Source: an uncultured Fibrobacteraceae bacterium
GTDB lineage: Bacteria > Krumholzibacteriota > Krumholzibacteriia > LZORAL124-64-63
Assembly: GCA_964559455.1 (NCBI GenBank)
Contig: CAZLHO010000003.1
Span: 42,963 to 106,962 of the forward strand
Reading direction: 5' to 3'
Length of the DNA: 64,000 bases
Position 1 is the stretch's first letter. Every line of letters begins with the position of its first letter. The position numbers were made by a program, and so were the translations under genes. Under the pieces are notes generated by a model that was given only the letters and a program-made list of their open reading frames with translations, was not told the DNA's origin and did no database searches. Shown in pieces: positions 12,732-51,615 of the stretch.

Positions 12732-13271
12732 CTAGCGGAACAATTCCTTCACGCCGCCCCAGGTCGTGTCCGCGTCGTCGACGGGGACCGTCAGGTAGGC
12801 GCAGGTGCCGGCGGCGGGCGTCGAGGCGCCCTGGCCGTCGCTCAGCGAGACGAAGCTGAAGCTGGGGTGGGGGATGGTGTTCAGGCGGCCGTAGTAGACC
12901 AGGAACTCGCCGGTGAAGAGGGTCAGCTCGCCGAGCACGACGGGCTGGCCGGCCGGATCCACGGGAACGTCCAGGGTCAGTTCGAGGCCGGTCTTGGCGC
13001 TGCCGATCGCCGTGCCGCCGAAGTAGATCTCGTCCAGGATCGTGATGTCGGGAAGGATGTCCAGCATGAAGGCCGCCCCGGCGATGGGGGTGTCGCTGAA
13101 GGCCAGGACCCAGGCGGTGTGCGTCTCGTCGTTGCCGCCGTTCAGGACCGCGTGGGCCTGCAGGCCGTCGGTGTCGAAGTAGACGCCGACCGAAGGGGTC
13201 TGGGCGACGGCGAGGACGGGGGTCAGGCCCAGGGCGAGGGCCAGGATCAGGATCGTTCGCATTCTCTTCAT
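12732..13271 (-). CDS. Small secreted protein (179 aa) ending in conserved tail ...VPVDDADTTWGGVKELFR
   Basis: ATG 13271. Signal peptide MKRMRTILILALALGLTPVLAVAQ. Beta-rich composition. C-terminal tail shared with the 36574..37617 protein. Confidence 0.65.
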   Translation of the reverse strand: MKRMRTILILALALGLTPVLAVAQTPSVGVYFDTDGLQAHAVLNGGNDETHTAWVLAFSDTPIAGAAFMLDILPDITILDEIYFGGTAIGSAKTGLELTLDVPVDPAGQPVVLGELTLFTGEFLVYYGRLNTIPHPSFSFVSLSDGQGASTPAAGTCAYLTVPVDDADTTWGGVKELFR

Positions 13272-13527: not shown

Positions 13528-14673
13528 CTAGAAGACGTCCACGTAGAGCCCGTCGCGCATCAGGGGGCGCGGGCCGTCGGGGCCGTCGAGGTCGACCGAG
13601 ACGACCCGGATGCGGGGCTGCACCTCGGGGATGTAGACGCGGTCGATGTGGACCACGGCCTCCGGCGAGGAGAAGTCGCCCGGGCCCACGACGCCGCCGA
13701 AGTGGTCGCTGCGCCCGAAGGCCACGTGCAGGCCCAGCTTCTCGTCCAGCAGGATGCTGCCGGTCGGCGCCAGGCCGAAGTCGCCGAGCACGCCCAGGCC
13801 CAACTCCGAGAGGTTGGCGTAGGCCGGCTCGTCGACGATGCGGCGGGCCTCGGCCCTGCTCGCCTCGCCCTCGCTCAGCACTGCGACGGCGCGGTTGCCC
13901 TCGATGCGGTAGACGACGACCTCGTCGCCGAACTGCACGGGCAGCTCGCCGCGGCCGCCGCTGGGGTCGCCCGGGCGCTCGCCCTCGTAGGGCACGATGT
14001 AGGTCTCGCCCGAGGGCAGGTTGCCGGCGACGCCGTTGGCGGGGAAGAGGCCGCCCGAGGCGTGGCTCTCGCGGTGGCGCAGGTCCAGGTCGAGCCGGTG
14101 CTCGCGGCCGTCGGCGGCCAGGACCAGGCGGGCCCCGACGGCCGGATCCAGCAGCTCCTTGAGCGCCAGCACGCGCCGGTTGACCTCGCCGTAGTCGATC
14201 CTCAGGGCGGGGATCATCGACGGCAGGAAGCCGGGCATCGTCGCGGCCCGCAGGGCGCGCCCGCGGCAGGCCACCTTCATCGGCGCGGTGGCCGAGAGCT
14301 CGGTCGGGGCCAGCACCATGCTGTGGGCCGCGAAGAGCTCGGCGAAGGGCAGGGTCGCGCGGCCGGCCAGCTCGTCGGCGTGGTGCAGCGCCGCGCCACC
14401 GGGGGCCGGGACGCAGTCCGGCGGCAGGTCGGCGTTGTTGCCCCCGGCGTTGCGGTACCAGGCCAGGGTCACCGTTGCCGGGGCGCCGGCGGCGCCGTCC
14501 AGCAGGCGGACCCACTCGGCGGCCATCCCGCGCCGGGCGCGCCAGTCGGGGTTGTCGGCCACGCGGGCGTCGGGCAGGTCCACGATCACGGCCAGGCCGC
14601 GATCGTCGTCGCCGGGAAGGAAGACGCGCCGGACCAGTTGGACGAGGTCGTCTGCGGACAGGGATTCGTTCAT
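13528..14673 (-). CDS. Hypothetical protein, possibly aminopeptidase-like (M29-type)
   Basis: ATG at 14673 (MNESLSADDLVQLV...). 381 aa. Upstream part of the longer ORF is Arg-rich artefact. Functional call is weak. Confidence 0.5.
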   Translation of the reverse strand: MNESLSADDLVQLVRRVFLPGDDDRGLAVIVDLPDARVADNPDWRARRGMAAEWVRLLDGAAGAPATVTLAWYRNAGGNNADLPPDCVPAPGGAALHHADELAGRATLPFAELFAAHSMVLAPTELSATAPMKVACRGRALRAATMPGFLPSMIPALRIDYGEVNRRVLALKELLDPAVGARLVLAADGREHRLDLDLRHRESHASGGLFPANGVAGNLPSGETYIVPYEGERPGDPSGGRGELPVQFGDEVVVYRIEGNRAVAVLSEGEASRAEARRIVDEPAYANLSELGLGVLGDFGLAPTGSILLDEKLGLHVAFGRSDHFGGVVGPGDFSSPEAVVHIDRVYIPEVQPRIRVVSVDLDGPDGPRPLMRDGLYVDVF

Positions 14674-14854: not shown

Positions 14855-15979
14855 ATGAGCCAGAACCGCGAGACCAACCTCGCCCTTTTCATCGATTTCG
14901 ACAACGTCGCCCTGGGCGCGCGCGACGCGCGCAAGCGCTTCGACATCCGCCCCGTGCTCGAGCGCATCCTCGAGAAGGGCAAGATCATCATCAAGAAGGC
15001 CTATGCGGACTGGAGCTACTACCAGGACTACATGGCCGACCTGCACGGGGCCGCGATCGAGCTGATCGAGGTGCCCTCGCCCCGGGTCAGCGGCAAGAAC
15101 AGCGCCGACATCCGCCTGGTCGTGGACGCCATGGACCTGTGCTACAGCAAGGACCACATCGACACCTTCGTCATCATCTCGGGCGACTCCGACTTCTCGC
15201 CCCTGGTGTCGAAGCTGCGCGAGAACAACAAGTCGGTCATCGGCATCGGCATGAAGGATTCCAGCTCGAAGCTGCTGATCCGCAACTGCGACGAGTTCAT
15301 CTTCTACGACGACATCATGCACGCGCCGGCGCCGGCTCGCGCGGTGCGTCTGGACGACGTCCCGCCCGAGAAGCGCAAGCTCTTCAGCCTGATCCTGACC
15401 ACCCTGCAGGGCCTGATGCTCGAGCACAAGGGCGTGCTCTACTCGTCGCTGATCAAGGACACGATCAAGCGCAAGAAGCCCGACTTCAATGAGGGCAACT
15501 GGGGCTACGGCTCGTTCGGCGAGCTGCTGGAGGACGCCCAGGCCCACGGCCTGCTCTCCGCCCGCCGCGACGAGGCCGCCGGCGGCACCTGGGTCGTCGA
15601 GGCCCTGGGCGGCGAGGCCGCGCCGGCGCGCCAGGGCAACGGACGCAAGACCTCGCGCCGGCGTTCGCGCCGCCGGGGTGGCGCCGGAGCCCGCGAGGGC
15701 GCCGACAGCCAGGCCGCGGCCGAGACCCCGGCCGAGAAGAAGGCGTCGGCCGCAGCGGCCGAGAAGAAGGCGCCGGCTCCCGCGGCGGAGGCCGCCCCGG
15801 CGAAGAAGGGCGCGAAGAAGACGACGGCCGCCAAGGCCACGGCCGCGAAGAAGAAGACGACGGCGAAGAAGACGACCGCCGCCAAGAAGACGACGGCGAA
15901 GAAGACGACGGCCAAGAAGACCACCACGCGCAAGAAGACCGCCAAGAAGGCCGCGACGAAGAAGGCGGCCGGCAGCTAG
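14855..15979 (+). CDS. NYN-domain (LabA-like) + OST-HTH/LOTUS protein with Lys/Ala/Thr-rich histone-H1-like C-terminal tail
   Basis: ATG 14855 with RBS aaggag. LALFIDFDNVALG NYN signature. KRKLFSLILTTLQGLM...GYGSFGELLEDAQ OST-HTH-like region. ~110-aa tail of AKK/TTAKK repeats. Confidence 0.8.
   Translation: MSQNRETNLALFIDFDNVALGARDARKRFDIRPVLERILEKGKIIIKKAYADWSYYQDYMADLHGAAIELIEVPSPRVSGKNSADIRLVVDAMDLCYSKDHIDTFVIISGDSDFSPLVSKLRENNKSVIGIGMKDSSSKLLIRNCDEFIFYDDIMHAPAPARAVRLDDVPPEKRKLFSLILTTLQGLMLEHKGVLYSSLIKDTIKRKKPDFNEGNWGYGSFGELLEDAQAHGLLSARRDEAAGGTWVVEALGGEAAPARQGNGRKTSRRRSRRRGGAGAREGADSQAAAETPAEKKASAAAAEKKAPAPAAEAAPAKKGAKKTTAAKATAAKKKTTAKKTTAAKKTTAKKTTAKKTTTRKKTAKKAATKKAAGS
15700..15976 (+). 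repeat. Low-complexity coding repeat (AAKK/TTAKK units) encoding the Lys/Ala-rich tail
   Basis: Reiterated gccaagaag / acgacggcgaagaag units. Confidence 0.6.
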
Positions 15980-19969: not shown

Positions 19970-21034
19970 CTATTCGGTTACGGCGGCGACCGAGGTGTCG
20001 GGGGCCTCGGCCTCGACGGCTTCGGCGACCGTGTCGGTCGTTTCGCCGGGCGCGAAGGACGCGGCGAGGGCGACCAGGTCCGCGCGCGCGCCCGTGTCGG
20101 CCTCGGCCAGCGGCGCCAGGCGCTCCAGGCTGTCGCCGGCGAGCGCGTGGCCCGCATCGGCGGCCAGGGCGTAGGCCTCGGCGGCGTCGCGCAGGTGGCC
20201 GGTGCGCTCCAGCGCCACGCCCAGGTTGTTGCGGATGCGGCCCTGGTCGGCGGCGAGTTGAGCGGCCCGGGCCAGCGGCGCCAGGGCGTCGGCGAAGCGC
20301 TCGGCCTCGATATGCAGCAGGCCGAGGTTGTTCAGGGCCCAGACGTCGTCGTCGTCGCGGCGCAGCACCTGCTCGTAGGCGTCGACGGCCTCGTCGCCGC
20401 GGCCCAGGTTGTGGTAGACGCGGCCCAGCACCCGCCAGGCCTCGACCGACTCGGGGTCGCTGTCGAGCGCGGCCTCGACCAGGGGCAGGGCGTCGGCGGG
20501 ACGCCGCTGGTCGAGCAGCACCCGGGCCAGGTTGACGCGGCTCTTCTGGTGGTCGGGCATGATCTCGAGCGCGCGGCCGAAAGCGTCCTCGGCGTCCTCG
20601 AGCGCACCCTGCTTCCACAGCGCCAGGCCGAGCATGTACGGACCCCAGGCGTTGCCGGGCTTGCGGTCGGCGTAGGCGGCGAAGAGGCGGGCGGCCTCGG
20701 AGTGGTCGCCGGCGAAGTAGGCGGCCTCGCCATCGGCGTAGAGCATGTGGTCGGGCACGAAGGGGCCGATGGCCTCGGGCTCTTCCGCGGCCTCGGCGAC
20801 GACAACGGCGTCGTCGTCGACGGGCGCGGCCTCGGGCTCGGGCTGCGGCTCGGCCAGGGCGACGGTCGGGGCGGGGTCGGCCACGGAGGCGACCGTGGCC
20901 TCGCCGCCGCCGCCGGCCAGCTTCATGCCGATGAGGACGACGGCGGCCAGGGCGAAGACGAAGGCCAGGCCGGCCTCGGCGAACTTGATGTGCCGCTGGC
21001 GGCGGCTCGATCCGGTGGCTTCCTGCTGCTTCAT
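19970..21034 (-). CDS. TPR-repeat protein with N-terminal membrane anchor
   Basis: 354 aa. TM helix LAFVFALAAVVLIGM. Multiple TPR-like units (AW.VLG.VYHNLG, ALNNLG). Confidence 0.8.
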   Translation of the reverse strand: MKQQEATGSSRRQRHIKFAEAGLAFVFALAAVVLIGMKLAGGGGEATVASVADPAPTVALAEPQPEPEAAPVDDDAVVVAEAAEEPEAIGPFVPDHMLYADGEAAYFAGDHSEAARLFAAYADRKPGNAWGPYMLGLALWKQGALEDAEDAFGRALEIMPDHQKSRVNLARVLLDQRRPADALPLVEAALDSDPESVEAWRVLGRVYHNLGRGDEAVDAYEQVLRRDDDDVWALNNLGLLHIEAERFADALAPLARAAQLAADQGRIRNNLGVALERTGHLRDAAEAYALAADAGHALAGDSLERLAPLAEADTGARADLVALAASFAPGETTDTVAEAVEAEAPDTSVAAVTE

Positions 21035-21103
21035 GGCGAGCTCCTTTCGCTCGTGGGTCGTCGGGGCCGGAGCCCCGGGGTGGACGGTCGTTGCCCCAGG
21101 AAG

Positions 21104-21119
21104 CGCAAGGGAGCGGCCA
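21104..21119 (-). promoter_or_regulatory. Candidate sigma-54 (-24/-12) promoter TGGCCG-N5-TTGCG ~70-85 bp upstream of the TPR gene
   Basis: Minus-strand tggccgctcccttgcg. GG and GC dinucleotides at the canonical spacing of TGGCAC-N5-TTGC. Confidence 0.45.
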
Positions 21120-21157
21120 GAAGAGCGGCGGCAGCAGATTGTTTATAAGATGTTCTA

Positions 21158-21170
21158 TATCAATTGGTTG
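21158..21170. promoter_or_regulatory. IHF-like site TATCAATTGGTTG (WATCAA-N4-TTR) between UAS and the sigma-54 promoter
   Basis: Direct read. AT-rich segment 21140..21175. Confidence 0.35.
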
Positions 21171-21175
21171 AAGGG

Positions 21176-21256
21176 TGTACACGTACACGACTTCGCCGCA
21201 ATGAAGCAGAAGTGTGTCTGACGGGACACGTCGACTTGTGTTTGATTGGACACGTT
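21176..21256. promoter_or_regulatory. Candidate enhancer (UAS): repeated ACACGT motifs (TACACGTACACG; GGACACGT x2 spaced 24 bp)
   Basis: GGACACGT at 21224..21231 and 21248..21255, plus tandem ACACGT at 21178..21189. Lies 57-137 bp upstream of the -24/-12 element and immediately 3' of the sigma-54 activator gene. Confidence 0.4.
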
Positions 21257-21302
21257 GCGGGATGGTCGCGGTACCCCTCGTCGGACCAGGGGCCGAACGT
21301 CC

Positions 21303-24535
<3,233 letters not shown>

Positions 24536-28778: not shown

Positions 28779-30083
28779 CTAGGGCAGGAAGCCGCGCACG
28801 TCCGAGAGCTTCTGCGGCAGGTACTCCTCGATCACGTAGTTCAGCCCGTGCTTGGCCAGGGCCTGCTGCTCGGCGCGCACCCCCATCTTGATCATCTGCA
28901 GCAGCGCCAGCTGCCACGGCTTGTGGTGGATCACGAAGGGGTCGTTCTTCAGGGCGTCCTTGGCCCGCTTGATGTCCACGTCCTTCAGGGGGTGGGTGGG
29001 CAGCTCGTAGTCCACGATGTCCTGCGGCGTGATGCCCAGGAAACGGGCCTGGGGCACGCAGAAGAAGCGGTTCAGGTGGGCGGCGTTGCCGCTGCCCACC
29101 TTCAGGGTGCGGTAGATGTTCATGAAGCCGTAGGGGTCGCCGTCGACGAAGACGTAGACCGGGATCTTCTTGGCGTCCGACAGGCGGCGCACGAAGCGGC
29201 GGCAGGCGCGCGTGGGCACGCCGCCCATCGAGATCAGGATGCAGCCGGCGTGCTTCCAGTAGTTGTGCTTCACCAGGCGCTGGAACATGCCCGCGGTCTC
29301 GATGCAGAGGATGAACTTGGCGTCGGTCTCGAAGCCCAGCTCCTCGACCGAGATCGGGATCGAGTAGGCGCCGCTGCCGAACTTCGTGCAGTCGATGCGC
29401 AGCTCCTCGCCGGTCTCGCCGTCGCGGTCGATCACGACCAGGCGCCCGGCCACGTCGCCGCCCTTCTCCTCGGGCACGAAGCCCATCTGCTCGCGGTTCA
29501 CGCCGTAGAAGGCCTCGACGTCCTCCATCACCGCGTCCGACTCGGGCTGCTCGCCGAAGCGGGCGTCCGCCCAGTTCTTGCTGACGTAGTAGGCCTCTCG
29601 CTTGGTGGCGATGTCGTCGGTCTCGACCAGTTCCTTGGACAGGGCCATCATCTTCAGGGTCTGGGCGAAGGTCTTGACCGTGCTCACGGTCAGGGTGCGC
29701 TCCTTGGTGCGGCCGCGCAGCTCGAAGAAGCCGACCTTGGGCTGGTAGCTGACGTTCTGCAGCGAGCGCAGCGGGAAGCGCAGCGACGGCTTGTCGCCCT
29801 TCAGGATCCGGCCTCGCACCGTGGCCGCCTCGTCGTGGATGCGCCCGAGCAGGGCGCCGCGGTCGTCGGGACCCTTCTTGGCGGCTCCGGCGGCCTTGCC
29901 CACGGCGGCCTTTGCCTGAGCGGTCTTCACGGGGGCCGTCCTGGCCGGCGCTTTTCCGGCGGCGGCCTTCTTCGCCGGCGCCGTCTTCTTCGGCGGCGGC
30001 CCGAAGGCCAGCTCGGCCTGCTTGTCGCCGGCCTTGGCGGGCGCCTTCTTCCCGGCGGTCTTCTTGCGCTTGTCCTGCGGCAA
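28779..30083 (-). CDS. top6A: Type IIB DNA topoisomerase VI subunit A (Spo11/Top6A homologue) with Lys/Ala-rich N-terminal extension
   Basis: TKREAYYVS (catalytic Tyr, 5Y-CAP). ILCIETAGMF and YVFVDGDPYG (Toprim DxD). ~75-aa KKAPAKAG/KTAPAKKAAAGK tail. TTG start at 30083. Confidence 0.8.
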   Translation of the reverse strand: MPQDKRKKTAGKKAPAKAGDKQAELAFGPPPKKTAPAKKAAAGKAPARTAPVKTAQAKAAVGKAAGAAKKGPDDRGALLGRIHDEAATVRGRILKGDKPSLRFPLRSLQNVSYQPKVGFFELRGRTKERTLTVSTVKTFAQTLKMMALSKELVETDDIATKREAYYVSKNWADARFGEQPESDAVMEDVEAFYGVNREQMGFVPEEKGGDVAGRLVVIDRDGETGEELRIDCTKFGSGAYSIPISVEELGFETDAKFILCIETAGMFQRLVKHNYWKHAGCILISMGGVPTRACRRFVRRLSDAKKIPVYVFVDGDPYGFMNIYRTLKVGSGNAAHLNRFFCVPQARFLGITPQDIVDYELPTHPLKDVDIKRAKDALKNDPFVIHHKPWQLALLQMIKMGVRAEQQALAKHGLNYVIEEYLPQKLSDVRGFLP

Positions 30084-30110: not shown

Positions 30111-31619
30111 CTAGAGCCCGTAGAGCTCGCCGTACTTCTGGTTCAGGTAGTCCGCGAAGGGCGCGATCGACAGGTCGCGTCCGGTGACCTCGCGGCACAG
30201 GTCGGGGGCGGCCAGCAGCCGGCCCTTGACGTGGATCCGGCCCCGCAGCCAGTTCAGCAGCGGCGCGAACTCGCCCCGCGACGCCTGCTGCTGCAGGTCG
30301 CCCAGGTCCTCGGCGGCCTTCGCGTAGAACTGCGCCGCGTAGAGGTTCCCCAGGCTGTAGGTCGGGAAGTAGCCGAAGCTGCCGAAGGCCCAGTGGATGT
30401 CCTGCAGCACGCCCTCGGCGTCGTCGGTCGGCGTCAGCCCCAGGTACTCGCGCATCTTCTCGTTCCAGAGCCCGGGCAGGTCGGCCACGGCGATCTCGTC
30501 GCGGAAGAGCGCCGTCTCGAGCTCGGTGCGCAGCACGATGTGCAGGTTGTAGGTCATCTCGTCGGCCTCGATGCGCACGGGCGAGCGGCGCACGACGTTG
30601 GCGGCGCGATACAGGGCCTCGTCGTCGGCGTCGCCGAAGGCCTCGGGGAAGAGGCGCGTCAGCAGCGGCCGGCAGTGGGACAGGAAGGCGCGGCTGCGGC
30701 CGACCATGTTCTCCCAGAGCCGGGACTGCGATTCGTGGATGCCCAGGCTCGCCGCCTCTCCCATCGGGGTGCCGGCGTGCTCGACCGGGAAGCCCTGCTC
30801 GTAGAGGCCATGGCCGCCCTCGTGCAGGGTCGAGAAGAGCGAGTTCGAAAGGTCGCCGGTGTCGTAGTGGGTCGTCAGGCGCACGTCGCGCGGATCGACT
30901 CCCGAGGTGAAGGGATGCCGCGAGACGTCCAGGCGGCCGCGCCGGAAATCGAAGCCCATGATCTCCAGCACCCGCGTCGCTAGCTCCTGCTGCCGGGCGA
31001 CGGGGAAGCTGCCGCGCAGCAGGGCGTCGTCGTGGCGTTCGCCGCGGTCCACGACGGCCGCGACCAGGGGCACGAGCAGATTCTTCAGCTCGGCCAGCAG
31101 GGGCAGCAGGGCCGCGGTGGTCATGCCGGGCTCGTATTCGTCGAGCATGGCGTCGTAGGGCTCGCCGGCGTAGCCCACGCATTCGGCCTCGCGGCGGCGC
31201 AGCGCCGCCAGGCGCTCCAGGTTGGGGGCGAAGCGCGCCCAGTCGCGGGCGGCGCGGGCCTCGGCCCAGGCCTGCTGGGCCAGGCTGCCTTCGCGGGTCA
31301 GCTCGGTCACCAGCTCCTTCGGCACCTTCACGGCCCGGTCGCGGTCGCGGCGCGCCTCGCGCACGTTGGCCGCCTGCTCGGGCGTCAGGCCGTCGGCGGC
31401 CGCGAGCTCGTCGATCATCGCGCCCAGGGCCGGGTCGACCACCCGGTCGTGGACGATGCCGGACAGGGTGGCCCGCGAGCGGGCCCGCCCGGCGATCCCC
31501 TCGGGGGGCATGTAGGTCTCCTGATCCCAGGACAGCAGGGACTGGGCGGCGTTCAGGTCGTGGACCTCGCGGATATGCGCGAGGAAATCGGCATGGATTC
31601 CGGCGATACGTTCGGACAT
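30111..31619 (-). CDS. M32 carboxypeptidase (Taq-type thermostable carboxypeptidase family)
   Basis: HEGGHGLYE HExxH motif, HESQSRLWEN and DIHW motifs. ATG 31619 preceded by GGGAGG. Confidence 0.85.
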   Translation of the reverse strand: MSERIAGIHADFLAHIREVHDLNAAQSLLSWDQETYMPPEGIAGRARSRATLSGIVHDRVVDPALGAMIDELAAADGLTPEQAANVREARRDRDRAVKVPKELVTELTREGSLAQQAWAEARAARDWARFAPNLERLAALRRREAECVGYAGEPYDAMLDEYEPGMTTAALLPLLAELKNLLVPLVAAVVDRGERHDDALLRGSFPVARQQELATRVLEIMGFDFRRGRLDVSRHPFTSGVDPRDVRLTTHYDTGDLSNSLFSTLHEGGHGLYEQGFPVEHAGTPMGEAASLGIHESQSRLWENMVGRSRAFLSHCRPLLTRLFPEAFGDADDEALYRAANVVRRSPVRIEADEMTYNLHIVLRTELETALFRDEIAVADLPGLWNEKMREYLGLTPTDDAEGVLQDIHWAFGSFGYFPTYSLGNLYAAQFYAKAAEDLGDLQQQASRGEFAPLLNWLRGRIHVKGRLLAAPDLCREVTGRDLSIAPFADYLNQKYGELYGL

Positions 31620-31680
31620 GGGGAACCTCCCGGGTTCGGGCACGGGGAGGAAAAGGTGACGCCGCCGGGAGGGGGCGGCC

Positions 31681-33393
31681 TTACATCTTGCGGCTGCGTT
31701 CCAGGGTGTCGGTGAGCGTGACGATGATGTCCTCGCGCTCGTCCTCCTTCAGGCCCAGGATGTCGCGCAGGGCATCCCCGATGTGCGGGATGTACTTCTG
31801 GATGTAGCTCTGCTTCTTCAGGGCCTCGCGCTCGCGCACCCGGCGCCGGATGTGGCGCTGCAGCTGCCGGCCGGCCTCCTGCAGGCCCAGCCGGATCTCC
31901 TTGACGATCTCCGGGTAGTGGGCCACGGCCTCCTTGCTCTCCGACGTGAAGGGCACCCACACCGAGGCCATGTGCACCAGGATCACCAGCGGGCCGGTGG
32001 GCAGCGCGCCCCGCGACTGCTGCATGCCGTAGCTGCGCCAGTTGTTGGCGAGCACCGCCTTGTGGATGGCGCAGGCCGAGGCCTGGTAGAGCAGGGGCAC
32101 GCGGTTGGCGAAGCGCAGCACCTCGGCCAGCTCGTCGCCGGGCAGGTCGCCGCCGTAGGCCAGCCCGACCTCGATCTGGAAGGGGTTGCCGCGGTAGACG
32201 GCCGCGGGACGGGTCACCGCCGTGTAGAAGTCGGCCCGGATGCGCTGCTCCAGGCCCTTGAGCACCAGCTCGGCCCCGATCGGCGACAGGCAGTCGGTGG
32301 GCGGCGAGGGGATGCGCGTCTCGCCGATGGCGTCCAGCAGCGCCTGCACGTCCTCCTGGCCCAGCAGCCGCGGATTCTTGCGGGCGGGAAAGCCCGCGGC
32401 CTCCAGGACCTGGCCCGCGGTCTTCGGGCCGACGCGGCAGAATTCGTTGCGCAGGAACGCGGTCAGGTTGCGGCTCTTGGTCTCCTTGAGCATCTGCAGC
32501 ATGCGGCCCAGCTCGACCCCGTAGGGGTGGGGCCGGATCTCGGCGGCCTCGACCGGCAGCTCGTCGGCGGCCCGGGCGTAGACCACCTCCTCGCCGCGCG
32601 GGTTGCGGTAGACCAGGCGCACGTGGGGGTTGGCCACGGCCGTCTGCTGCAGGTAGGTGTCGACGGAGTGGTGGCCGCGCTTGTACGAACCCGCCAGCTC
32701 GATCTCCACGCGGGTGCCGTGCTCCACGTCCCAGGGCGCGGTCTCGTCCTTCTGGACCACGGGCTCGTTGCGCTTCATGTCCAGGGTCAGCTCGCAGCGC
32801 CGGGCCTCGGGCATGTCCTTGGTGCGGCTCAGGACGACCACCGGCTTGCCCGTGGTCAGCTGCCCGTACATGCCGGCGGCCGAGATGCCGATGCCCTGCT
32901 GGCCCCGGCTCTGGCGCAGGCTGTGGAACTTCGAGCCGTAGAGCAGCTTGCCGAAGATGCGCGGCACCTGGGCGCGCACGATGCCCGGGCCGTTGTCCTG
33001 GACCACGACCCGGAAGCGCTCCTCGCGCTGCGGAGGGGCGGCGCCGCGGCGTCGGCCGTTGCTCTTGCCGTTGCCGTTGTCCTCGGCGTGGGCCTCGCCG
33101 CCGTCCATCTCCAGGGAGGCCGCCGCGCGGTTCTTGCCGTTGCCGTTGGCCTGCACGGGCTGGATCTCGACCAGGATGTCGGGCAGGATCCCGGCCTCCT
33201 CGCAGGCGTCCAGGGCGTTGTCGACGGCTTCCTTGATCGTGGTCAACAGGGCCTTGGCCGGGGAGTCGAAGCCCAGCAGGTGGCGGTTCTTCGTGAAGAA
33301 CTCGCTGATCGAGATCTCCCGCTGCTTCTTCGCCATGCTCTGCGCGGTGGCGGCGGTGTGGTTGCGGGATGACTTGCGCGCGGTGGCAGGCAT
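31681..33393 (-). CDS. top6B: DNA topoisomerase VI subunit B (GHKL ATPase + transducer)
   Basis: Bergerat-fold N-box EAVDNALDA, G1 DNGPGI, G2 GQQGIGISAAG, H2TH-like and transducer regions. ATG 33393 with RBS aaggaacggag. Low-complexity insert between the N-box and G1. Confidence 0.8.
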   Translation of the reverse strand: MPATARKSSRNHTAATAQSMAKKQREISISEFFTKNRHLLGFDSPAKALLTTIKEAVDNALDACEEAGILPDILVEIQPVQANGNGKNRAAASLEMDGGEAHAEDNGNGKSNGRRRGAAPPQREERFRVVVQDNGPGIVRAQVPRIFGKLLYGSKFHSLRQSRGQQGIGISAAGMYGQLTTGKPVVVLSRTKDMPEARRCELTLDMKRNEPVVQKDETAPWDVEHGTRVEIELAGSYKRGHHSVDTYLQQTAVANPHVRLVYRNPRGEEVVYARAADELPVEAAEIRPHPYGVELGRMLQMLKETKSRNLTAFLRNEFCRVGPKTAGQVLEAAGFPARKNPRLLGQEDVQALLDAIGETRIPSPPTDCLSPIGAELVLKGLEQRIRADFYTAVTRPAAVYRGNPFQIEVGLAYGGDLPGDELAEVLRFANRVPLLYQASACAIHKAVLANNWRSYGMQQSRGALPTGPLVILVHMASVWVPFTSESKEAVAHYPEIVKEIRLGLQEAGRQLQRHIRRRVREREALKKQSYIQKYIPHIGDALRDILGLKEDEREDIIVTLTDTLERSRKM

Positions 33394-33501
33394 GAGACTC
33401 CGTTCCTTCCTGCCGGGAAGGGCTGACCAGAGGTTGCTGTTCGTGCGGCCCAACAGTACGGGAGGGCCCGGGCGATTGCAAGCCGGGCCTGACGGCGGGG
33501 G

Positions 33502-36573: not shown

Positions 36574-37617
36574 CTAGCGGAAGAGGGCCTTGACGCGGCC
36601 CAGGGTCCGGGACTCGGCCGGCACCGGCACGTTGTCGCAGAGGATCTCGAGAGTGAAGGCGCCGTCGCCCTCGAAGTCGCCGCCCTCGGTGGTCAGGGGG
36701 CGGAAGGCGTCCACGCCCAGGTAGAAGACCCCGGCTTCGCCGGTGTCGTTCTCGTAGTCCAGCACCTCGCCGACCCCGGCCAGGCCCCGGTCGACGGCGG
36801 CCACGCAGACGGCGTCGGGGCCGACTCCGGAGAAAAGCCAGAGGGCGCCGTCGAAGACGATCTGGCTCAGCTCGGCGCGGAAGACGGCGGTATCCGGCAG
36901 GGTGACGGCGAACCAGACCTCGCCGCCCTTCTCCAGGTAGTCGGAGCAGCCGGCCGCGGCCGTCAGCAGGTCGGGCCGGTCGAAGATGTTGTCCAGGGCC
37001 GTGGCCCCCTCGACGTTGCAGGCCAGCGGCCGGGCGGCGGCGGCGACGGCGGGGTCCAGCCCCGCGGCGCCGGCGGCCAGGCTCAGCTCGTAGGCGCCCG
37101 CCGCGGCCGTGGCCGGATCCTGGCCCAGCCCGTCGACCACCAGCAGGTAGTCGCCGGCCTCGAGCTCGACGGCGAATTCGGCGTTGGCCCAGGCCACGCA
37201 GGCGTCGCTGTCGCAGTCCGAGAGCAGCAGCACGTCCAGGTCGGGCACCGGGTCCAGCAGCACGTGCAGCCGGGCGGCCTCGGGCAGGTGCAGGCGATAG
37301 AGATCCTCGCCGCCGGCCAGGAACCAGGCGGCGCAGGGGTAGTCCGAGACGCGGTCGGGCGCGGTCGAGGTGTCGCCGCTCCACGTGGTGTCGAATCCGG
37401 CGGTCACGGTGATCAGGGGCGCGGCGGCGCAGTCGATGGGCACGCGCAGCGGCGCGACGGCCGGCTTCGCGGGCAGGACGCGGGCGGGCTCGTCCTTGGG
37501 GAGCGCGACGGGGGGATGAGTGACGGGGACGCCGGCGCCTTGGCCCGGGCCTGCGGCGGCCAGGACCCAGAGGGCGATAGCGAACGGGATCGAGCTGTCT
37601 AAACGAAGGCGGCGCAT
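36574..37617 (-). CDS. Secreted protein with two PPC-like repeats, ending in conserved tail ...VPVPAESRTLGRVKALFR
   Basis: ATG 37617 with RBS gagga. Signal peptide. Internal duplication (SDYPCAAWF... / CSDYLEKGGEVWF...). C-terminal tail shared with the 12732..13271 protein. Confidence 0.65.
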   Translation of the reverse strand: MRRLRLDSSIPFAIALWVLAAAGPGQGAGVPVTHPPVALPKDEPARVLPAKPAVAPLRVPIDCAAAPLITVTAGFDTTWSGDTSTAPDRVSDYPCAAWFLAGGEDLYRLHLPEAARLHVLLDPVPDLDVLLLSDCDSDACVAWANAEFAVELEAGDYLLVVDGLGQDPATAAAGAYELSLAAGAAGLDPAVAAAARPLACNVEGATALDNIFDRPDLLTAAAGCSDYLEKGGEVWFAVTLPDTAVFRAELSQIVFDGALWLFSGVGPDAVCVAAVDRGLAGVGEVLDYENDTGEAGVFYLGVDAFRPLTTEGGDFEGDGAFTLEILCDNVPVPAESRTLGRVKALFR

Positions 37618-47205: not shown

Positions 47206-48372
47206 ATGCCCCGACGCATCCGCATCTGCTACGTCATCAACGCCTTCGCGATCGGGGGAGCGGAGACCGTGGTCCTGGACCTCGCCCGCGGCCTCGACCC
47301 CGAGATCTACGATGTCACCGTCCTGGCCGTCCACGATCGGGCCGGCGGCGAAGAGCCCGAGATGCGGCGCCGATTTCGGGCGGCGGGGGTGCGCACGGCG
47401 GCGATGACTCTGGGTTCGATGCGCAATCCGCTGTCGCTGTACCGGCTCTGGCGGTTCCTGCGGTCCGGCCGCTTCGACATCGTGCACGGTCACAATCGCC
47501 CGAGCGACGCCTGGGCGGTCACCGTCGGGGGCTGGGCCGGGATCCCCCACCGGTTGTGGACTCGGCATCTGGTCTATCGGGACATGAGCCCTCGCCAGTT
47601 GAGTCGCTATTCGGATATCTCGCGCCGGGCCGCGATCGTGCTGGCGGTCTCCGATGCGGTGCGGGAGAACTGCATCCGGGTCGAGGGCGTCTCGCCCGAC
47701 AAGGTGACGACGCTGGTCAACGGCATCGACACGGACCGTTACCGGCCGCTGGGCGCGGAGGCCAGGCGCGCCAAGAGACGCGACCTGGGACTCGCCGAGG
47801 GCCAGCGGATGCTTCTGTTCGTGGGCAGGTTGTCGCATCAGAAGGCCCCGGACGCCTTCGTGCGGCTGATCTGGTCGTTGCGCGAGGAGAGGCCGGAGAT
47901 CCGCGGGTTCGTCTGCGGCGGGGGACCGTTGGCGGCGGATCTGGCGACAATGGTCGCCGGCGGCCCCGGCGGCGTCGATCTGCTCGGTTTCCGGGGGGAT
48001 GTCCCGGCACTGCTCGGGGCCAGCGACCTTTTCGTCTCCACCTCGCGGAACGAGGGGCTGCCCTTGAACATGATGGAGGCCATGTCCTGCGCCGCGCCCT
48101 TCGTCGGGCCGGACATTCCGCAGGTCTCGTGCCTCTTCGCGGGCGAGGCTTCCCTGCGCAGGCGACTCTATGCGCCGCCGCCCCTGGAGGGGGATGTCCC
48201 CGCCGGGACCCTGGCTGCCTGGCGCGACCGGATTATCGCCGCGCTGGACGATCCCATGGCGGTCGCCGTCGGGAATCGGGGACGAGAAATCATCCGCGGG
48301 GAGTACTCGCTCGGCAGGATGATCGAGCGCCATCACGAGATCTACCTAAGTTTCGCGTTGTCAGGGAATTGA
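47206..48372 (+). CDS. GT4-family glycosyltransferase
   Basis: ATG 47206 preceded by GGGAG. ICYVINAFAIGGAE...NEGLPLNMMEAMS. Confidence 0.85.
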   Translation: MPRRIRICYVINAFAIGGAETVVLDLARGLDPEIYDVTVLAVHDRAGGEEPEMRRRFRAAGVRTAAMTLGSMRNPLSLYRLWRFLRSGRFDIVHGHNRPSDAWAVTVGGWAGIPHRLWTRHLVYRDMSPRQLSRYSDISRRAAIVLAVSDAVRENCIRVEGVSPDKVTTLVNGIDTDRYRPLGAEARRAKRRDLGLAEGQRMLLFVGRLSHQKAPDAFVRLIWSLREERPEIRGFVCGGGPLAADLATMVAGGPGGVDLLGFRGDVPALLGASDLFVSTSRNEGLPLNMMEAMSCAAPFVGPDIPQVSCLFAGEASLRRRLYAPPPLEGDVPAGTLAAWRDRIIAALDDPMAVAVGNRGREIIRGEYSLGRMIERHHEIYLSFALSGN

Positions 48373-48397
48373 CAATATGTCCGCAGTGGATTATCAT
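48369..48397 (+). promoter_or_regulatory. Sigma-70 promoter-like TTGACA-N17-TATCAT at the head of a 270-bp lower-GC leader
   Basis: Direct read. Overlaps the stop of the preceding GT4 gene. Confidence 0.45.
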
Positions 48398-48642
48398 AAG
48401 GGAGCGATTTGGACCGGTCCCCGTGCCTTCGGGAGACTTCCGGTTTTCAGCCTTGCCACCCCGCAACGGCTTCGTGAGGAGTTGACTAGAGCGATTTTTG
48501 CTACAGCCAGGCAACTCGCGGACGATTGTATTTTCACGTAGCCGGTGTGCGTCTGCCTTCAGACCAACGCAAGATATTCCAAGGGGGTGTGCCACCCCCC
48601 GCTACCCGGTATTCGCCGCCGGGCCAGGTTGACAGGTGTGCC

Positions 48643-49356
48643 ATGAGCAAGATTCTGGATTCTGTGAAGATCAAATCGGGTGGCGCGGACGAGATCACCC
48701 TGCGGTTGGCCAATATCGGCCGCAGTGCTCTCTTCCCGCTGCCGCATAAGCGTCAAAGGCGCGAATTCGAGAACATCACCAACGCACTGATGAATCTGCA
48801 CAACAGCAGGACCGGCGAGGCGGTGGTTTTCGCGTCGTCGGTCAAGGGAGAGGGCGCGTCCTTCGTTTCCTACAACGTGGCTCGCTTCATCAGCGTGCTT
48901 TTCGACCGGAGCGTGGCCTGGATCGACGCCAACTTCCGTTCTCCCCACCCCCGGCTGAATTCCGACGGCATCGATTTCCGCAGCCTGCTGCTCTATCCCG
49001 AACTCGTGCGCGACATTCCCGACAACGACTCGTTCCAGGTCATTCCCCACGGCACCGCGCCGATCAAATCGGCGGGCCTGCTGACCAGCGAAAACTACCT
49101 TCAGCTGCTGCGGGGACTTCAGGACAGATTCTTCTTCACAGTGATCGACGGCCCCCCGATACTGGACGCTGTGGATTCCGGCCACTTGGCTCTGCCGACG
49201 TTGGGGCTGGTGCTCGTCGTCGAGAGTCGGCGCCTGGACCGCGAGGTGATCCGCCATGGGATCCAGACCGTCAGGTCCAACAACGTGAACGTCCTGGGTT
49301 CGGTGCTCAACAGACGGGTGTACGACATCCCCGATTTCATCTATTCCAGGTTGTAG
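48643..49356 (+). CDS. BY-kinase/CpsD-like P-loop protein with degenerate Walker A (VKGEGAS instead of GxGKT)
   Basis: ATG 48643. VFASSVKGEGASFVSYNVA aligns to the BY-kinase Walker A but lacks Lys/Thr. FFTVIDGPPILD Walker-B-like DxxP region. Confidence 0.65.
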   Translation: MSKILDSVKIKSGGADEITLRLANIGRSALFPLPHKRQRREFENITNALMNLHNSRTGEAVVFASSVKGEGASFVSYNVARFISVLFDRSVAWIDANFRSPHPRLNSDGIDFRSLLLYPELVRDIPDNDSFQVIPHGTAPIKSAGLLTSENYLQLLRGLQDRFFFTVIDGPPILDAVDSGHLALPTLGLVLVVESRRLDREVIRHGIQTVRSNNVNVLGSVLNRRVYDIPDFIYSRL

Positions 49357-49370
49357 CCGGGAGGTCAGCC

Positions 49371-50168
49371 TTGCCCCTGATTCCGCCGAGCAGCGTCCGC
49401 CGCGGTCTTATTCCCCGGTTGACCCAAGCGGTCTTCTGCATCCTTGCGCTGGCTGCGCTTTCGGGATGCGGTTCGACGGGGCCTGCGGTCAGGACCGAGT
49501 TCCGGCCCTTCTCGGCGGAGGAGGCCGCCCTCGACCGGAGCCAGCGGGGAGCCCGCTATACGCTCCAGCCCGGCGATGTGGTCACCGTCAGCTTCAAGTA
49601 CGAGAAGGACCTGGACCAGAATCACCTGCGGGTGCTGCCCGACGGCCGATTCACCATGAGCGGCGCGGAGGACATCAAGGTTGTCGGCATGACCATCTCC
49701 GAGTTGGACAGCGTGCTGACCGGAACCTTCGCAGCGGACTACGTCGCTCCCGAACTGTCGGTCATCATGGAGGAGTTCGGGGCCCAGCAGGTCTTCGTTC
49801 TCGGCGAGGTCGGGGCGCCCGGCCAGTACAAGCTGCCGGACCAGGGGCGCGGCGTGCTGCAGGCGGTGGCGATGGCGGGCGGCTTCAGCCAGCACGCATC
49901 CACTTCCGAGGTCCTGCTGGTGCGGGTCGTGGACGGCGGCTTCGAGTACAAGCTCTTCGACGTCTCCCACCTCGAGAAAGAGGGGTTGCGGTCCTTCGAG
50001 GCCATGGATGTCAGGCCCAACGACATCATCTACGTTCCGCGATCCACACTCGGCGACCTCGGCTATTTCCACCAGACCGTCCTGCGCAACATCGTCGACC
50101 TCGGGGATCTGTTCTGGGACATCTACGCGATCGTGAACATCGAGGATGTGGACCGTCTTTACAGATAA
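49371..50168 (+). CDS. Polysaccharide export outer-membrane lipoprotein (Wza/GumB-like)
   Basis: TTG start with GGGAGG RBS. Lipobox LSGC. Poly_export + SLBB pattern. Confidence 0.8.
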   Translation: MPLIPPSSVRRGLIPRLTQAVFCILALAALSGCGSTGPAVRTEFRPFSAEEAALDRSQRGARYTLQPGDVVTVSFKYEKDLDQNHLRVLPDGRFTMSGAEDIKVVGMTISELDSVLTGTFAADYVAPELSVIMEEFGAQQVFVLGEVGAPGQYKLPDQGRGVLQAVAMAGGFSQHASTSEVLLVRVVDGGFEYKLFDVSHLEKEGLRSFEAMDVRPNDIIYVPRSTLGDLGYFHQTVLRNIVDLGDLFWDIYAIVNIEDVDRLYR

Positions 50169-50182
50169 GCGGGGACGCGACC

Positions 50183-51610: not shown

Positions 51611-51615
51611 TCCCG

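What the first reader, a model, noticed from the sequence alone, without database searches (positions are those of the whole stretch)
12732..12788. Conserved ~18-residue C-terminal tail shared by two unrelated secreted proteins (copy 1): possible undescribed sorting tag
Seen: the signal-peptide protein 12732..13271 ends ...TCAYLTVPVDDADTTWGGVKELFR-COOH. The unrelated signal-peptide protein 36574..37617 ends ...LCDNVPVPAESRTLGRVKALFR-COOH. Aligned from VPV, 10 of 18 residues are identical (VPV, T, G, VK, LFR) and both have a Cys 4-5 residues before VPV, with both proteins terminating immediately after LFR. The rest of each protein is different (a small beta-rich domain versus tandem PPC-like domains). 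Established: short conserved C-terminal modules on otherwise unrelated secreted proteins are the hallmark of dedicated sorting systems such as LPXTG/sortase, PEP-CTERM/exosortase, GlyGly-CTERM/rhombosortase and T9SS CTDs. This tail matches none of those: it has no TM helix, no basic cluster and no PEP or LPXTG motif. Inference: a distinct, possibly undescribed C-terminal recognition or processing signal. Notably it sits next to a large exopolysaccharide locus.
Basis: partly seen in the sequence, partly recalled or inferred. Interest (0 to 1): 0.7.

Follow-up and report, generated by a model that had tools for sequence, protein, structure and literature searches.

The report
Undescribed short C-terminal protein tag
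The shared tail is real: a roughly 20-residue C-terminal tag ending in ...[ST]WGx[VI]KxL[YF]R sits on hundreds of unrelated secreted proteins in one group of mostly uncultured bacteria, has most hallmarks of a protein-sorting or docking signal, and matches no family in Pfam or NCBIfam.

Summary
Both genes end in the same module: a Pro/Val/Thr-rich linker followed by [ST]-W-G-x-[VI]-K-[AS]-L-[YF]-R-COOH. Copy 2 carries Leu in place of Trp.

- **Spread.** They returned more than 250 ORFs with the tail.
- **Taxa.** Almost all named hits lie in the Fibrobacterota-Chlorobiota-Bacteroidota (FCB) group: Eisenbacteria, Krumholzibacteriota, Latescibacterota, Gemmatimonadota, Fibrobacteraceae and Ignavibacteria.
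- **Carriers.** Most have a signal peptide, and their bodies are unrelated to each other.
- **Position.** The motif is terminal. In a scan that did not require a stop codon, 114 of 131 matches were followed at once by a stop.
- **Known families.** No Pfam or NCBIfam model covers the tail.
- **Interchange.** Paralogous bodies in the same genomes carry either this tail or a type IX secretion system (T9SS) type A C-terminal domain.
- **Sorting-signal criteria.** It meets six of Haft's eight criteria. It lacks the transmembrane helix and the Arg cluster, so it is not a sortase- or exosortase-type signal.
- **Structure.** AlphaFold models carrier 1 as a cohesin-fold module, a linker and a short terminal helix.

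Best reading: a new receptor-recognised sorting or docking tag. The receptor is unknown.

The parts
12732..13271 (-). Carrier 1 gene (179 aa): signal peptide, cohesin-fold body, linker and C-terminal tag
   Evidence: ORF found. The exact protein is on record in public assemblies (P0001). The family has 98 clusters at 50% identity.
13203..13271 (-). Signal peptide of carrier 1 (residues 1-23, MKRMRTILILALALGLTPVLAVA|Q)
   Evidence: Read directly from the sequence. The model shows a helix at residues 3-15. The cleavage site is inferred from the AVA-Q motif.
12789..13193 (-). Cohesin-fold beta-sandwich body of carrier 1 (residues 27-161)
12765..12788 (-). Linker of the tag, copy 1 (VPVDDADT, residues 162-169)
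   Evidence: It matches the family consensus P(-17)-V/T(-16)-P/A/S-T/V-E at positions the search pattern did not constrain. The model shows no regular secondary structure here, pLDDT about 75.
12735..12764 (-). Core motif of the tag, copy 1 (TWGGVKELFR-COOH, residues 170-179)
   Evidence: 29.9 bits. Residues 171-177 are modelled as a short helix.
36574..37617 (-). Carrier 2 gene (347 aa): signal peptide, body of unknown fold and C-terminal tag
   Evidence: ORF found. The exact protein is on a JGI contig. It has no homologues beyond itself and no Pfam or NCBIfam hit.
36607..36630 (-). Linker of the tag, copy 2 (VPVPAESR)
   Evidence: P-V-P-x-E matches the family consensus at positions -17 to -13.
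36577..36606 (-). Core motif of the tag, copy 2 (TLGRVKALFR-COOH). A divergent member with Leu in place of Trp.
   Evidence: It scores 21.3 bits against the external tail HMM. No other Leu variant occurs among about 134 relaxed-motif matches.

Best explanation
The tail is a modular C-terminal sorting or docking tag about 18-20 residues long. It has two parts:
- a flexible Pro/Val/Thr-rich linker, often just after a domain-closing Cys;
- a 9-10-residue amphipathic segment, [ST]-W-G-x-[VI]-K-[AS]-L-[YF]-R, at or within a few residues of the free C-terminus.

Proposed mechanism:
1. The carrier is exported by Sec and its signal peptide is removed. This step is inferred from the signal peptides.
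2. The tag has no membrane-spanning part, so the protein is released into the periplasm as a soluble intermediate.
3. The exposed terminal helix is bound in trans by a dedicated envelope receptor encoded elsewhere in the genome, in a one-to-many relationship.
4. The receptor routes or tethers the passenger at the outer membrane or cell surface.

The tag would thus do the same job that a T9SS C-terminal domain does for paralogous passengers in the same genomes.

Shown here: the motif, its strictly terminal position, its modularity, its taxonomic range and its interchange with T9SS domains.

Inferred: the receptor, the destination, and whether the tag is cleaved.
For: 1. **Real and widespread.** The genome scan gave 123 matches in 119 loci, nearly all closing ORFs of 100-480 aa. 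The metagenome scan gave 131 more.
2. **Conserved beyond the pattern.** Positions the search pattern left free are also conserved: P at -17, V/T at -16, E at -13 and A/S at -4. Where the pattern allowed a choice, one option dominates: L 122 to F 2 at -3, and no Pro at -10.
3. **Terminal.** In 842 kb of loci, 131 of 134 relaxed matches sit exactly at a C-terminus. Without any stop requirement, 114 of 131 are followed at once by a stop and 10 more by one residue and then a stop. Chance would give about 5%.
4. **Exported carriers.** 103 of 123 have a classical N-terminal signal peptide.
5. **Unrelated bodies.** Mean column identity is 7%. Bodies hit LTD, CHRD, choice-of-anchor V, DNRLRE, ExeM nuclease, metalloprotease and cupredoxin families. 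In other phyla several of these carry PEP-CTERM, MYXO-CTERM or GlyGly-CTERM signals.
6. **Interchange with T9SS domains.** Paralogous bodies carry either the tag or a T9SS type A domain. Examples are the adjacent L022 genes (70% identical), L125, L068, L102/L090 and P0095.
7. **Not part of the fold.** In two-domain members of carrier 1's family the motif occurs once, at the very end. The first repeat ends at ...YLTVP.
8. **Predicted shape.** AlphaFold models a linker (162-170) and a short helix (171-177) after the cohesin fold.
9. **Sorting-signal criteria.** It meets criteria 1, 2, 3, 6, 7 and 8 of Haft's list (10.1101/2023.06.07.544157).
10. **Taxonomic range.** Named hits are almost all from FCB-group lineages.
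Against: - No receptor or processing enzyme was identified. No gene recurs next to carriers apart from synteny-specific Maf and MatE genes and T9SS-domain proteins.
- There is no experimental evidence for localisation or cleavage.
- In the cohesin-like family the last residue varies: R in 48 of 89, otherwise GN, Q, N, E, GR or none. Recognition of an exact Arg-COOH end is therefore unlikely to be universal.
- The modelled helix has pLDDT 75-79, not below 50. It may pack on its own body and have a structural role.
- In Ignavibacteria the scan found the tag on one small protein family only. That looks more like a dedicated partner than a general signal.
Confidence: 0.55

Rival explanations
1. 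The tag is a minimal, lineage-specific cargo signal for the T9SS. The T9SS translocon or a shuttle protein such as a PorV-like barrel recognises it, and it stands in for the usual 70-100-residue Ig-like C-terminal domain.
For: - The tag is confined to FCB-group lineages, where T9SS cargo are found.
- T9SS type A domain proteins lie in 29 of 119 tag loci.
- The same passenger domains carry either signal.
- Both signals end in a hydrophobic stretch followed by a basic residue.
- A conserved Lys and the C-terminal motif matter for T9SS function (PMC11285876).
Against: - TIGR04183 and the other T9SS models do not match the tag.
- The T9SS signal needs a folded Ig-like sandwich (PMC11285876). The tag is about 20 residues and is modelled as a helix.
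- Only 1 of 119 loci is labelled Bacteroidia, the class where the T9SS is best known, and that hit is doubtful. This argues against recognition by a core T9SS component.
- T9SS domains tolerate C-terminal extension. The tag is almost always terminal.
Confidence: 0.2
2. The tag is a dockerin-like docking peptide. It binds cohesin-fold modules such as the body of carrier 1. Cohesin-plus-tag proteins then chain to each other or act as adaptors, and other tagged proteins are recruited onto them.
For: - A body-only HMM finds 26 such modules in the sampled loci, and all 26 carry the tag. That is about 10% of carriers.
- Two-cohesin members have a single tag, as adaptor scaffoldins have a single dockerin.
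- The helix is modelled with moderate confidence, which may reflect contact with the cohesin body.
Against: - There is no Pfam Cohesin or Dockerin match.
- Dockerins are Ca-binding duplicated modules of about 60-70 residues, not a 10-residue helix.
- The model's coordinates could not be inspected, so no contact was shown.
- The sampled loci were chosen for carrying the tag, which biases the 26 of 26 result.
- Cohesin-like carriers were not seen in the Ignavibacteria loci.
Confidence: 0.15
3. The tag is a receptor-independent in-plane anchor. The short amphipathic helix has a Trp, Val/Ile, Leu, Tyr/Phe face flanked by Lys and Arg. It sits in the interface of a membrane leaflet or on LPS and keeps the protein at the envelope, as the C-terminal helix of PBP5 does.
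For: The hydrophobic residues are spaced 3-4 apart (positions -9, -6, -3 and -2) with basic residues beside them. The segment is modelled as a helix on a flexible linker.
Against: - Only about 2.5 turns and four hydrophobic residues are available, which is weak for stable anchoring.
- The near-invariance of Gly at -8 and Lys at -5 and the strict terminal position suggest a specific protein partner.
- This reading does not explain the narrow taxonomic range.
Confidence: 0.1
4. The tail has no sorting role. It is either a structural C-terminal element that unrelated folds happen to share, or a periplasmic quality-control or degradation tag.
For: No receptor was found. The helix's pLDDT is compatible with packing on its own body.
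Against: - It occurs on many unrelated folds.
- It lies outside the repeated domain in tandem members.
- It is conserved across several phyla, which a degradation tag would not explain.
- It is interchangeable with T9SS domains.
Confidence: 0.05

Closest known systems
T9SS type A C-terminal domain (TIGR04183 / Por_Secre_tail, FlgD_ig-like)
   Same: Both are C-terminal and sit on Sec-exported, otherwise unrelated proteins of FCB-group bacteria. Both occur in the same genomes and loci and on paralogous passenger domains. Both end in a hydrophobic stretch and a basic residue.
   Different: The T9SS domain is a folded Ig-like beta-sandwich, seven-stranded in the solved structures (PMC11285876); the NCBIfam model spans 72 positions. 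The tag is about 20 residues: a linker and a short modelled helix. No HMM match links them. The tag is almost always at the very end, whereas T9SS domains tolerate extension. The tag is nearly absent from the Bacteroidia hits.
Tripartite C-terminal sorting signals: PEP-CTERM/exosortase, LPXTG/sortase, GlyGly-CTERM/rhombosortase, MYXO-CTERM/myxosortase
   Same: All are short with several copies per genome. All sit on signal-peptide proteins with unrelated bodies, and homologues carry other anchors. The tag meets Haft criteria 1, 2, 3, 6, 7 and 8. In this window both copies lie beside an XrtA/PEP-CTERM-type EPS locus.
   Different: The tag has no transmembrane helix and no Arg cluster (criteria 4 and 5). 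It therefore cannot be held in the inner membrane for an intramembrane or membrane-bound sorting enzyme. No exosortase lies in the window. It matches no CTERM model.
Dockerin-cohesin docking (cellulosome-type)
   Same: Both involve a helical C-terminal module on diverse secreted proteins. One major carrier family, including carrier 1, has a cohesin fold. Two-cohesin proteins with one terminal module resemble adaptor scaffoldins.
   Different: A dockerin is a duplicated Ca-binding module of about 60-70 residues. There is no Pfam Dockerin or Cohesin hit here. Binding was not tested.
Short C-terminal peptides recognised by their free end: OMP beta-signal, chaperone-usher pilin C-terminus, PBP5 amphipathic anchor
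   Same: All are short, terminal, have an aromatic residue near the end, and sit in the cell envelope.
   Different: The carriers are soluble beta-sandwich or enzyme domains, not beta-barrels or pilins. The last residue is basic, not aromatic. The spacing of hydrophobic residues fits a helix, not an alternating strand. These comparisons rest on recalled knowledge and were not tested here.

Membership tests
Tripartite C-terminal sorting signals (criteria of Haft 2023, 10.1101/2023.06.07.544157) | 1. [quoted passage not shown] | tested here: met
   131 of 134 matches are exactly terminal. 114 of 131 are followed at once by a stop when none was required.
Tripartite C-terminal sorting signals (criteria of Haft 2023, 10.1101/2023.06.07.544157) | 2. 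Multiple occurrences in one genome | tested here: met
   There are two in this 64-kb window. At least 18 assemblies have 2-4 separate loci even in a truncated scan. L054 holds at least five carriers in 8 kb.
Tripartite C-terminal sorting signals (criteria of Haft 2023, 10.1101/2023.06.07.544157) | 3. [quoted passage not shown] | tested here: met
   W, G, K, L and Y/F. This was confirmed without the DNA pattern in the cohesin-like family.
Tripartite C-terminal sorting signals (criteria of Haft 2023, 10.1101/2023.06.07.544157) | 4. Hydrophobic transmembrane segment | tested here: not met
   Only 9 residues follow the Trp, and they include Lys and Arg.
Tripartite C-terminal sorting signals (criteria of Haft 2023, 10.1101/2023.06.07.544157) | 5. 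Cluster of 2-5 basic residues at the end | tested here: not met
   There is one Lys at -5 and usually one terminal Arg.
Tripartite C-terminal sorting signals (criteria of Haft 2023, 10.1101/2023.06.07.544157) | 6. Most carriers have an N-terminal signal peptide | tested here: met
   103 of 123 by a hydrophobicity heuristic. No dedicated predictor was available.
Tripartite C-terminal sorting signals (criteria of Haft 2023, 10.1101/2023.06.07.544157) | 7. Many carrier pairs share nothing but the signal | tested here: met
   Mean column identity is 7% over 105 carriers. The two window proteins align only in the tail.
Tripartite C-terminal sorting signals (criteria of Haft 2023, 10.1101/2023.06.07.544157) | 8. 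Homologues carry a different sorting signal or none | tested here: met
   Paralogues carry T9SS type A domains. Bodies hit PEP-CTERM-, MYXO-CTERM- and GlyGly-CTERM-associated families.
PEP-CTERM / exosortase | Match to a PEP-CTERM model, and an exosortase gene in the genome | tested here: not met
   No CTERM model matches. No exosortase lies in the 64-kb window despite an XrtA-type EPS locus. The rest of the genome could not be read.
T9SS type A C-terminal domain | Match to TIGR04183 or PF18962/FlgD_ig | tested here: not met
   Neither window protein, and none of the 105 carriers, matches through the tail. Neighbouring true cargo do match.
T9SS type A C-terminal domain | Folded Ig-like 7-stranded beta-sandwich of about 70-100 residues | tested here: not met
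   The tag is 18-20 residues, modelled as a linker and a helix. The fold definition comes from PMC11285876.
T9SS type A C-terminal domain | T9SS machinery present; tag removed by PorU and cargo linked to anionic LPS | not testable with these tools
T9SS cargo are present in related loci.
Dockerin | Duplicated Ca-binding F-hand; Pfam Dockerin_1 match | tested here: not met
   No hit.
Dockerin | Binds a cohesin module | not testable with these tools
   No complex prediction was available and the model's coordinates could not be inspected.
Cohesin fold (body of carrier 1 only) | Beta-sandwich that superposes on solved cohesins | tested here: met
Cohesin fold (body of carrier 1 only) | Sequence match to Pfam Cohesin (PF00963) | tested here: not met
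   No Pfam hit at E <= 1.
Outer-membrane protein beta-signal | Terminal aromatic residue closing a beta-barrel | tested here: not met
   The last residue is Arg or variable. Carrier 1 is a soluble beta-sandwich.

The most novel reading that the evidence does not exclude
The tag marks a previously unrecognised envelope sorting or docking system of the FCB superphylum outside Bacteroidia. The system would have its own receptor or processing protein. It would work on soluble periplasmic intermediates through a 10-residue terminal helix, and would run in parallel with, and independently of, the T9SS. One version is a cohesin-based, cellulosome-like surface assembly in Gram-negative candidate phyla.
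Probability: 0.35. Interest if true: 0.85.

Novelty: new variant of a known kind. Interest (0 to 1): 0.74.

Why it matters
C-terminal sorting tags have repeatedly led to new secretion and anchoring machines: sortase, exosortase, rhombosortase, myxosortase and the T9SS.

This tag is short and easy to search for. It marks a large set of secreted proteins in phyla that are almost entirely uncultured (Eisenbacteria, Krumholzibacteriota, Latescibacterota, Gemmatimonadota), where surface biology is unknown.

- It gives an immediate way to predict part of their surface or extracellular proteome.
- It gives a precise query for phylogenetic profiling to find the partner protein.
- Because it has no membrane segment, the partner must work differently from all sortase-like enzymes.
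- A cultured carrier, Rosettibacter primus, makes the question experimentally testable.
- A 10-20-residue tag that directs localisation could also be useful as a tool.

Tried and rejected
- **AlphaFold of carrier 1 with two sequences.** It failed with pLDDT 30. It worked only after the representatives search supplied 66 relatives.
- **afdb50 fold library.** Not available.
- **Solved structures.** No PDB chain contains the tail.
- **Literature.** Searches for the motif strings, and for Eisenbacteria with sorting terms, found nothing relevant. Searches on T9SS and sorting signals gave only comparison material.
- **Candidate sorting enzyme among neighbours.** All-against-all clustering of 2629 ORFs and a Pfam census of 135 nearest neighbours found no recurrent peptidase, outer-membrane protein or PDZ/TPR protein.
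- **Exosortase in the window.** None found. The two unassigned ORFs are a multi-TM glycosyltransferase-like protein and a soluble protein with no predicted TM segment that looks like a polysaccharide deacetylase by eye.
- **Recent partial duplication.** Rejected.
- **Chance.** Rejected.
- **Homology to the last strand of T9SS domains.** Considered by eye and rejected. No formal alignment was made.
- **General link to EPS loci.** Not supported outside this window.

Full report
**1. The observation**

Both ORFs are on the - strand at the stated coordinates.
- Carrier 1 is 12732..13271, 179 aa, ending ...TCAYLTVPVDDADTTWGGVKELFR*.
- Carrier 2 is 36574..37617, 347 aa, ending ...LCDNVPVPAESRTLGRVKALFR*.

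A six-frame scan finds no third C-terminus of this kind in the window. The back-translated pattern is expected 0.00 times by chance in the window. BLASTP aligns only the last 19 residues of the two proteins, with 10 identical. The two tails use different synonymous codons. They are therefore not a recent partial duplication. Neither protein matches any Pfam or NCBIfam family at E <= 1.

**2. The tail elsewhere**

Carrier 1 has one close homologue, P0002, at 63% identity. Its tail is CAWLTVPVDEQKTSWGGVKTLYR* and it lies in the same gene order.

I scanned one genome per GTDB species for [TSPA]-W-G-x-[VIM]-K-x-[LF]-[YF]-R-stop.
- The 123 matches almost all close ORFs of 100-480 aa.
- 103 of them start with a classical signal peptide.
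- Positions that the pattern left free are also conserved: P at -17 (45 of 124), V/T at -16 (92), P/A/S at -15, T/V at -14, E at -13 (47) and A/S at -4 (87).
- Where the pattern allowed alternatives, one dominates: L 122 to F 2 at -3, and T 84, S 30, A 10, P 0 at -10.
- A Cys lies at -18 to -20 in 46 of 123.

Both window tails fit this consensus. Copy 1 has P-V at -17/-16. Copy 2 has P-V-P-A-E at -17 to -13. A tail HMM built from the external tails alone scores copy 1 at 29.9 bits and copy 2 at 21.3 bits. The next best C-terminus in the window scores 7.3 bits. Copy 2 is atypical in having Leu for Trp. No other Leu variant appeared among about 134 relaxed matches.

**3. The terminal position is intrinsic**

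- In the 842 kb of genome loci, a relaxed protein motif occurs 134 times in six frames. Of these, 131 are exactly at a C-terminus, 2 are followed by one more residue, and 1 is internal.
- In an independent metagenome scan that did not require a stop codon, 114 of 131 matches are followed at once by a stop. Ten more are followed by one residue and then a stop, and all the rest end within 15 residues. Chance would give about 5%.

**4. Taxonomic range**

The named records are as follows.
- About 24 Eisenbacteria.
- About 13 Krumholzibacteriota.
- About 12 Fibrobacteraceae.
- About 6 Latescibacterota.
- About 11 Ignavibacteria, Melioribacteraceae or Kapaibacteria, including the cultured Rosettibacter primus 4148-Me.
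- 4 Gemmatimonadota and 1 Zixibacteria.
- A few probably mis-binned contigs and many unnamed MAGs.

Only one locus is labelled Bacteroidia, and its ORF lacks the upstream consensus. No named locus comes from Actinomycetota or Bacillota, and only one is labelled proteobacterial (Alphaproteobacteria, L093). These statements rest on a truncated scan. At least 18 assemblies contribute two to four separate loci.

**5. Carriers and what replaces the tail**

The 105 carriers I aligned share nothing but the tail, with a mean column identity of 7%. No Pfam or NCBIfam family is shared through the tail.

The bodies hit LTD, CHRD, beta-helix, CBM, metalloprotease, cupredoxin, choice-of-anchor V, DNRLRE, ExeM nuclease and several families named for PEP-CTERM or MYXO-CTERM anchoring.

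ORF clustering showed that 29 of 119 loci also encode proteins ending in ...SGVYFYRL...RKMVLLR. For three of the four such proteins tested this is a T9SS type A sorting domain above the TIGR04183 cut-off, and the fourth scores just below it.

Several tail carriers are paralogues of such T9SS cargo over the body only.
- The adjacent L022 genes are 70% identical over 134 aa.
- L125, L068, L117/L125 and L102/L090 show the same relationship.

The same passenger can therefore carry either C-terminal module.

**6. Carrier 1's family and structure**

An exhaustive profile search finds 98 clusters at 50% identity with E <= 0.001. They are about 180 aa, or about 320 aa as a tandem of two domains.
- The last residue is Arg in 48 and otherwise variable.
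- In the tandem forms the first repeat ends ...YLTVP and the next repeat starts at once. The motif occurs only once, at the end of the protein. It is therefore not part of the repeated fold.
- One relative, P0095 (1647 aa), has the same N-terminal domain and a T9SS domain at its end.

**7. Context in the window**

Positions 34-61 kb hold an exopolysaccharide locus. Its best NCBIfam matches, all below the curated cut-offs, are to XrtA/PEP-CTERM-system families.
- The associated ATPase scores 217 bits.
- Other matches are the FemAB-like protein, tyrosine autokinase, export protein, chain-length determinant, O-antigen-ligase-like protein, amidotransferase and stp2-type glycosyltransferases.
- At 20-24.5 kb lie a sigma-54 response regulator, a histidine kinase and a TPR protein.

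No exosortase is present in the 64 kb. Elsewhere, nearest neighbours of carriers show no EPS enrichment and no recurrent candidate enzyme. Only Maf and MatE (synteny in Ignavibacteria) and FlgD_ig recur.

**8. Interpretation**

Haft's eight attributes of small C-terminal sorting signals (10.1101/2023.06.07.544157) are met for position, multiplicity, signature residues, signal peptides, unrelated carriers and alternative anchors. They are not met for the transmembrane segment and the Arg cluster.

Without a membrane segment the exported protein cannot be held in the inner membrane for a sortase-like enzyme. Recognition must therefore happen on a soluble periplasmic intermediate or at the outer membrane.

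The spacing of hydrophobic residues (positions -9, -6, -3 and -2), flanked by Lys and Arg, together with the model, points to a short amphipathic helix on a flexible linker. I take this to be a peptide bound in trans by a receptor that routes or tethers the passenger, doing the same job as a T9SS domain. My confidence in this reading is 0.55.

Four rivals remain.
- **A minimal T9SS signal (0.2).** This is weakened by the lack of any model match, the lack of an Ig fold, and the near absence of the tag from Bacteroidia.
- **A dockerin-like ligand of the cohesin-fold family (0.15).** This is attractive but untested.
- **A receptor-free membrane or LPS anchor (0.1).**
- **A non-sorting structural element or degradation tag (0.05).**

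**9. Novelty**

Neither Pfam (2025) nor NCBIfam release 20 models the tail. No PDB chain holds it. Full-text searches for the motif found nothing. Haft's catalogue paper does not mention these phyla.

It is a new variant of a known kind, the C-terminal protein tag. Its architecture differs from both the tripartite signals and the T9SS domain.

Noticed in passing
window 34350-61628, plus 19970-24535: An exopolysaccharide locus whose best NCBIfam matches are XrtA/PEP-CTERM-system families. These include the associated ATPase at 217 bits, FemAB-like protein, tyrosine kinase, export protein, chain-length determinant, O-ligase-like protein, amidotransferase, stp2 glycosyltransferases, and PrsR/PrsK/PrsT-like regulators. 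All score below the curated cut-offs. No exosortase lies in the 64 kb.
   Followed up: partly
window 28779-30083 (-) and 31681-33453 (-): Topoisomerase VI subunits A and B in what is evidently a bacterium. A 510-aa ORF (30111-31643) lies between them. By eye it looks like an M32 carboxypeptidase; this was not tested.
   Followed up: no
window 14855-15976 (+): A protein with an NYN ribonuclease-like domain fused to a C-terminal region resembling the histone H1-like nucleoprotein HC2.
   Followed up: no
window 48000-53000: G+C falls to 62-65%, against about 70% elsewhere, inside the EPS locus. The segment covers the tyrosine kinase, export protein, chain-length determinant and O-antigen-ligase-like genes.
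   Followed up: no
L030, L035, L038, L039, L047, L057, L064, L091, L093, L103, L109, L122: In Ignavibacteria, Melioribacteraceae and Kapaibacteria the tag was found on a single small family (131-145 aa, ending ...VSSVKRTWGSIKALFR). Most members lie in conserved synteny with maf and a MatE gene. One is in the cultured Rosettibacter primus 4148-Me (L103).
   Followed up: partly
L247-L255 (IMG/VR contigs): Nine contigs classed as viral carry ORFs with genuine-looking tags, for example ...PSPVDEETWGRVKALYR. They may be prophages, misclassified host DNA, or phage genes that use the host's tag.
   Followed up: partly
L054 (Latescibacteria chromosome OY970173.1), L114, L033, L085, L092, L098, L020/L015/L056/L119: Carriers often lie in tandem arrays of paralogues, with at least five in 8 kb of L054. 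Some array members have degenerate ends such as SWGQLKRGYR, TWGGIKARYR, SWGAIKASYGTRH and TWSHIKAGFSSE.
   Followed up: partly
window 36577-36606 (copy 2): Copy 2 has Leu where Trp is about 99% conserved, and a 99%-identical protein in the public database (P0003) also has Leu. It may be a weakened or specialised version of the tag.
   Followed up: partly
window 13528-14673 (-), upstream of carrier 1: A 381-aa protein with no Pfam or NCBIfam match lies next to carrier 1. An incomplete upstream ORF occupies the same position in the related contig L006, but its homology was not checked.
   Followed up: no
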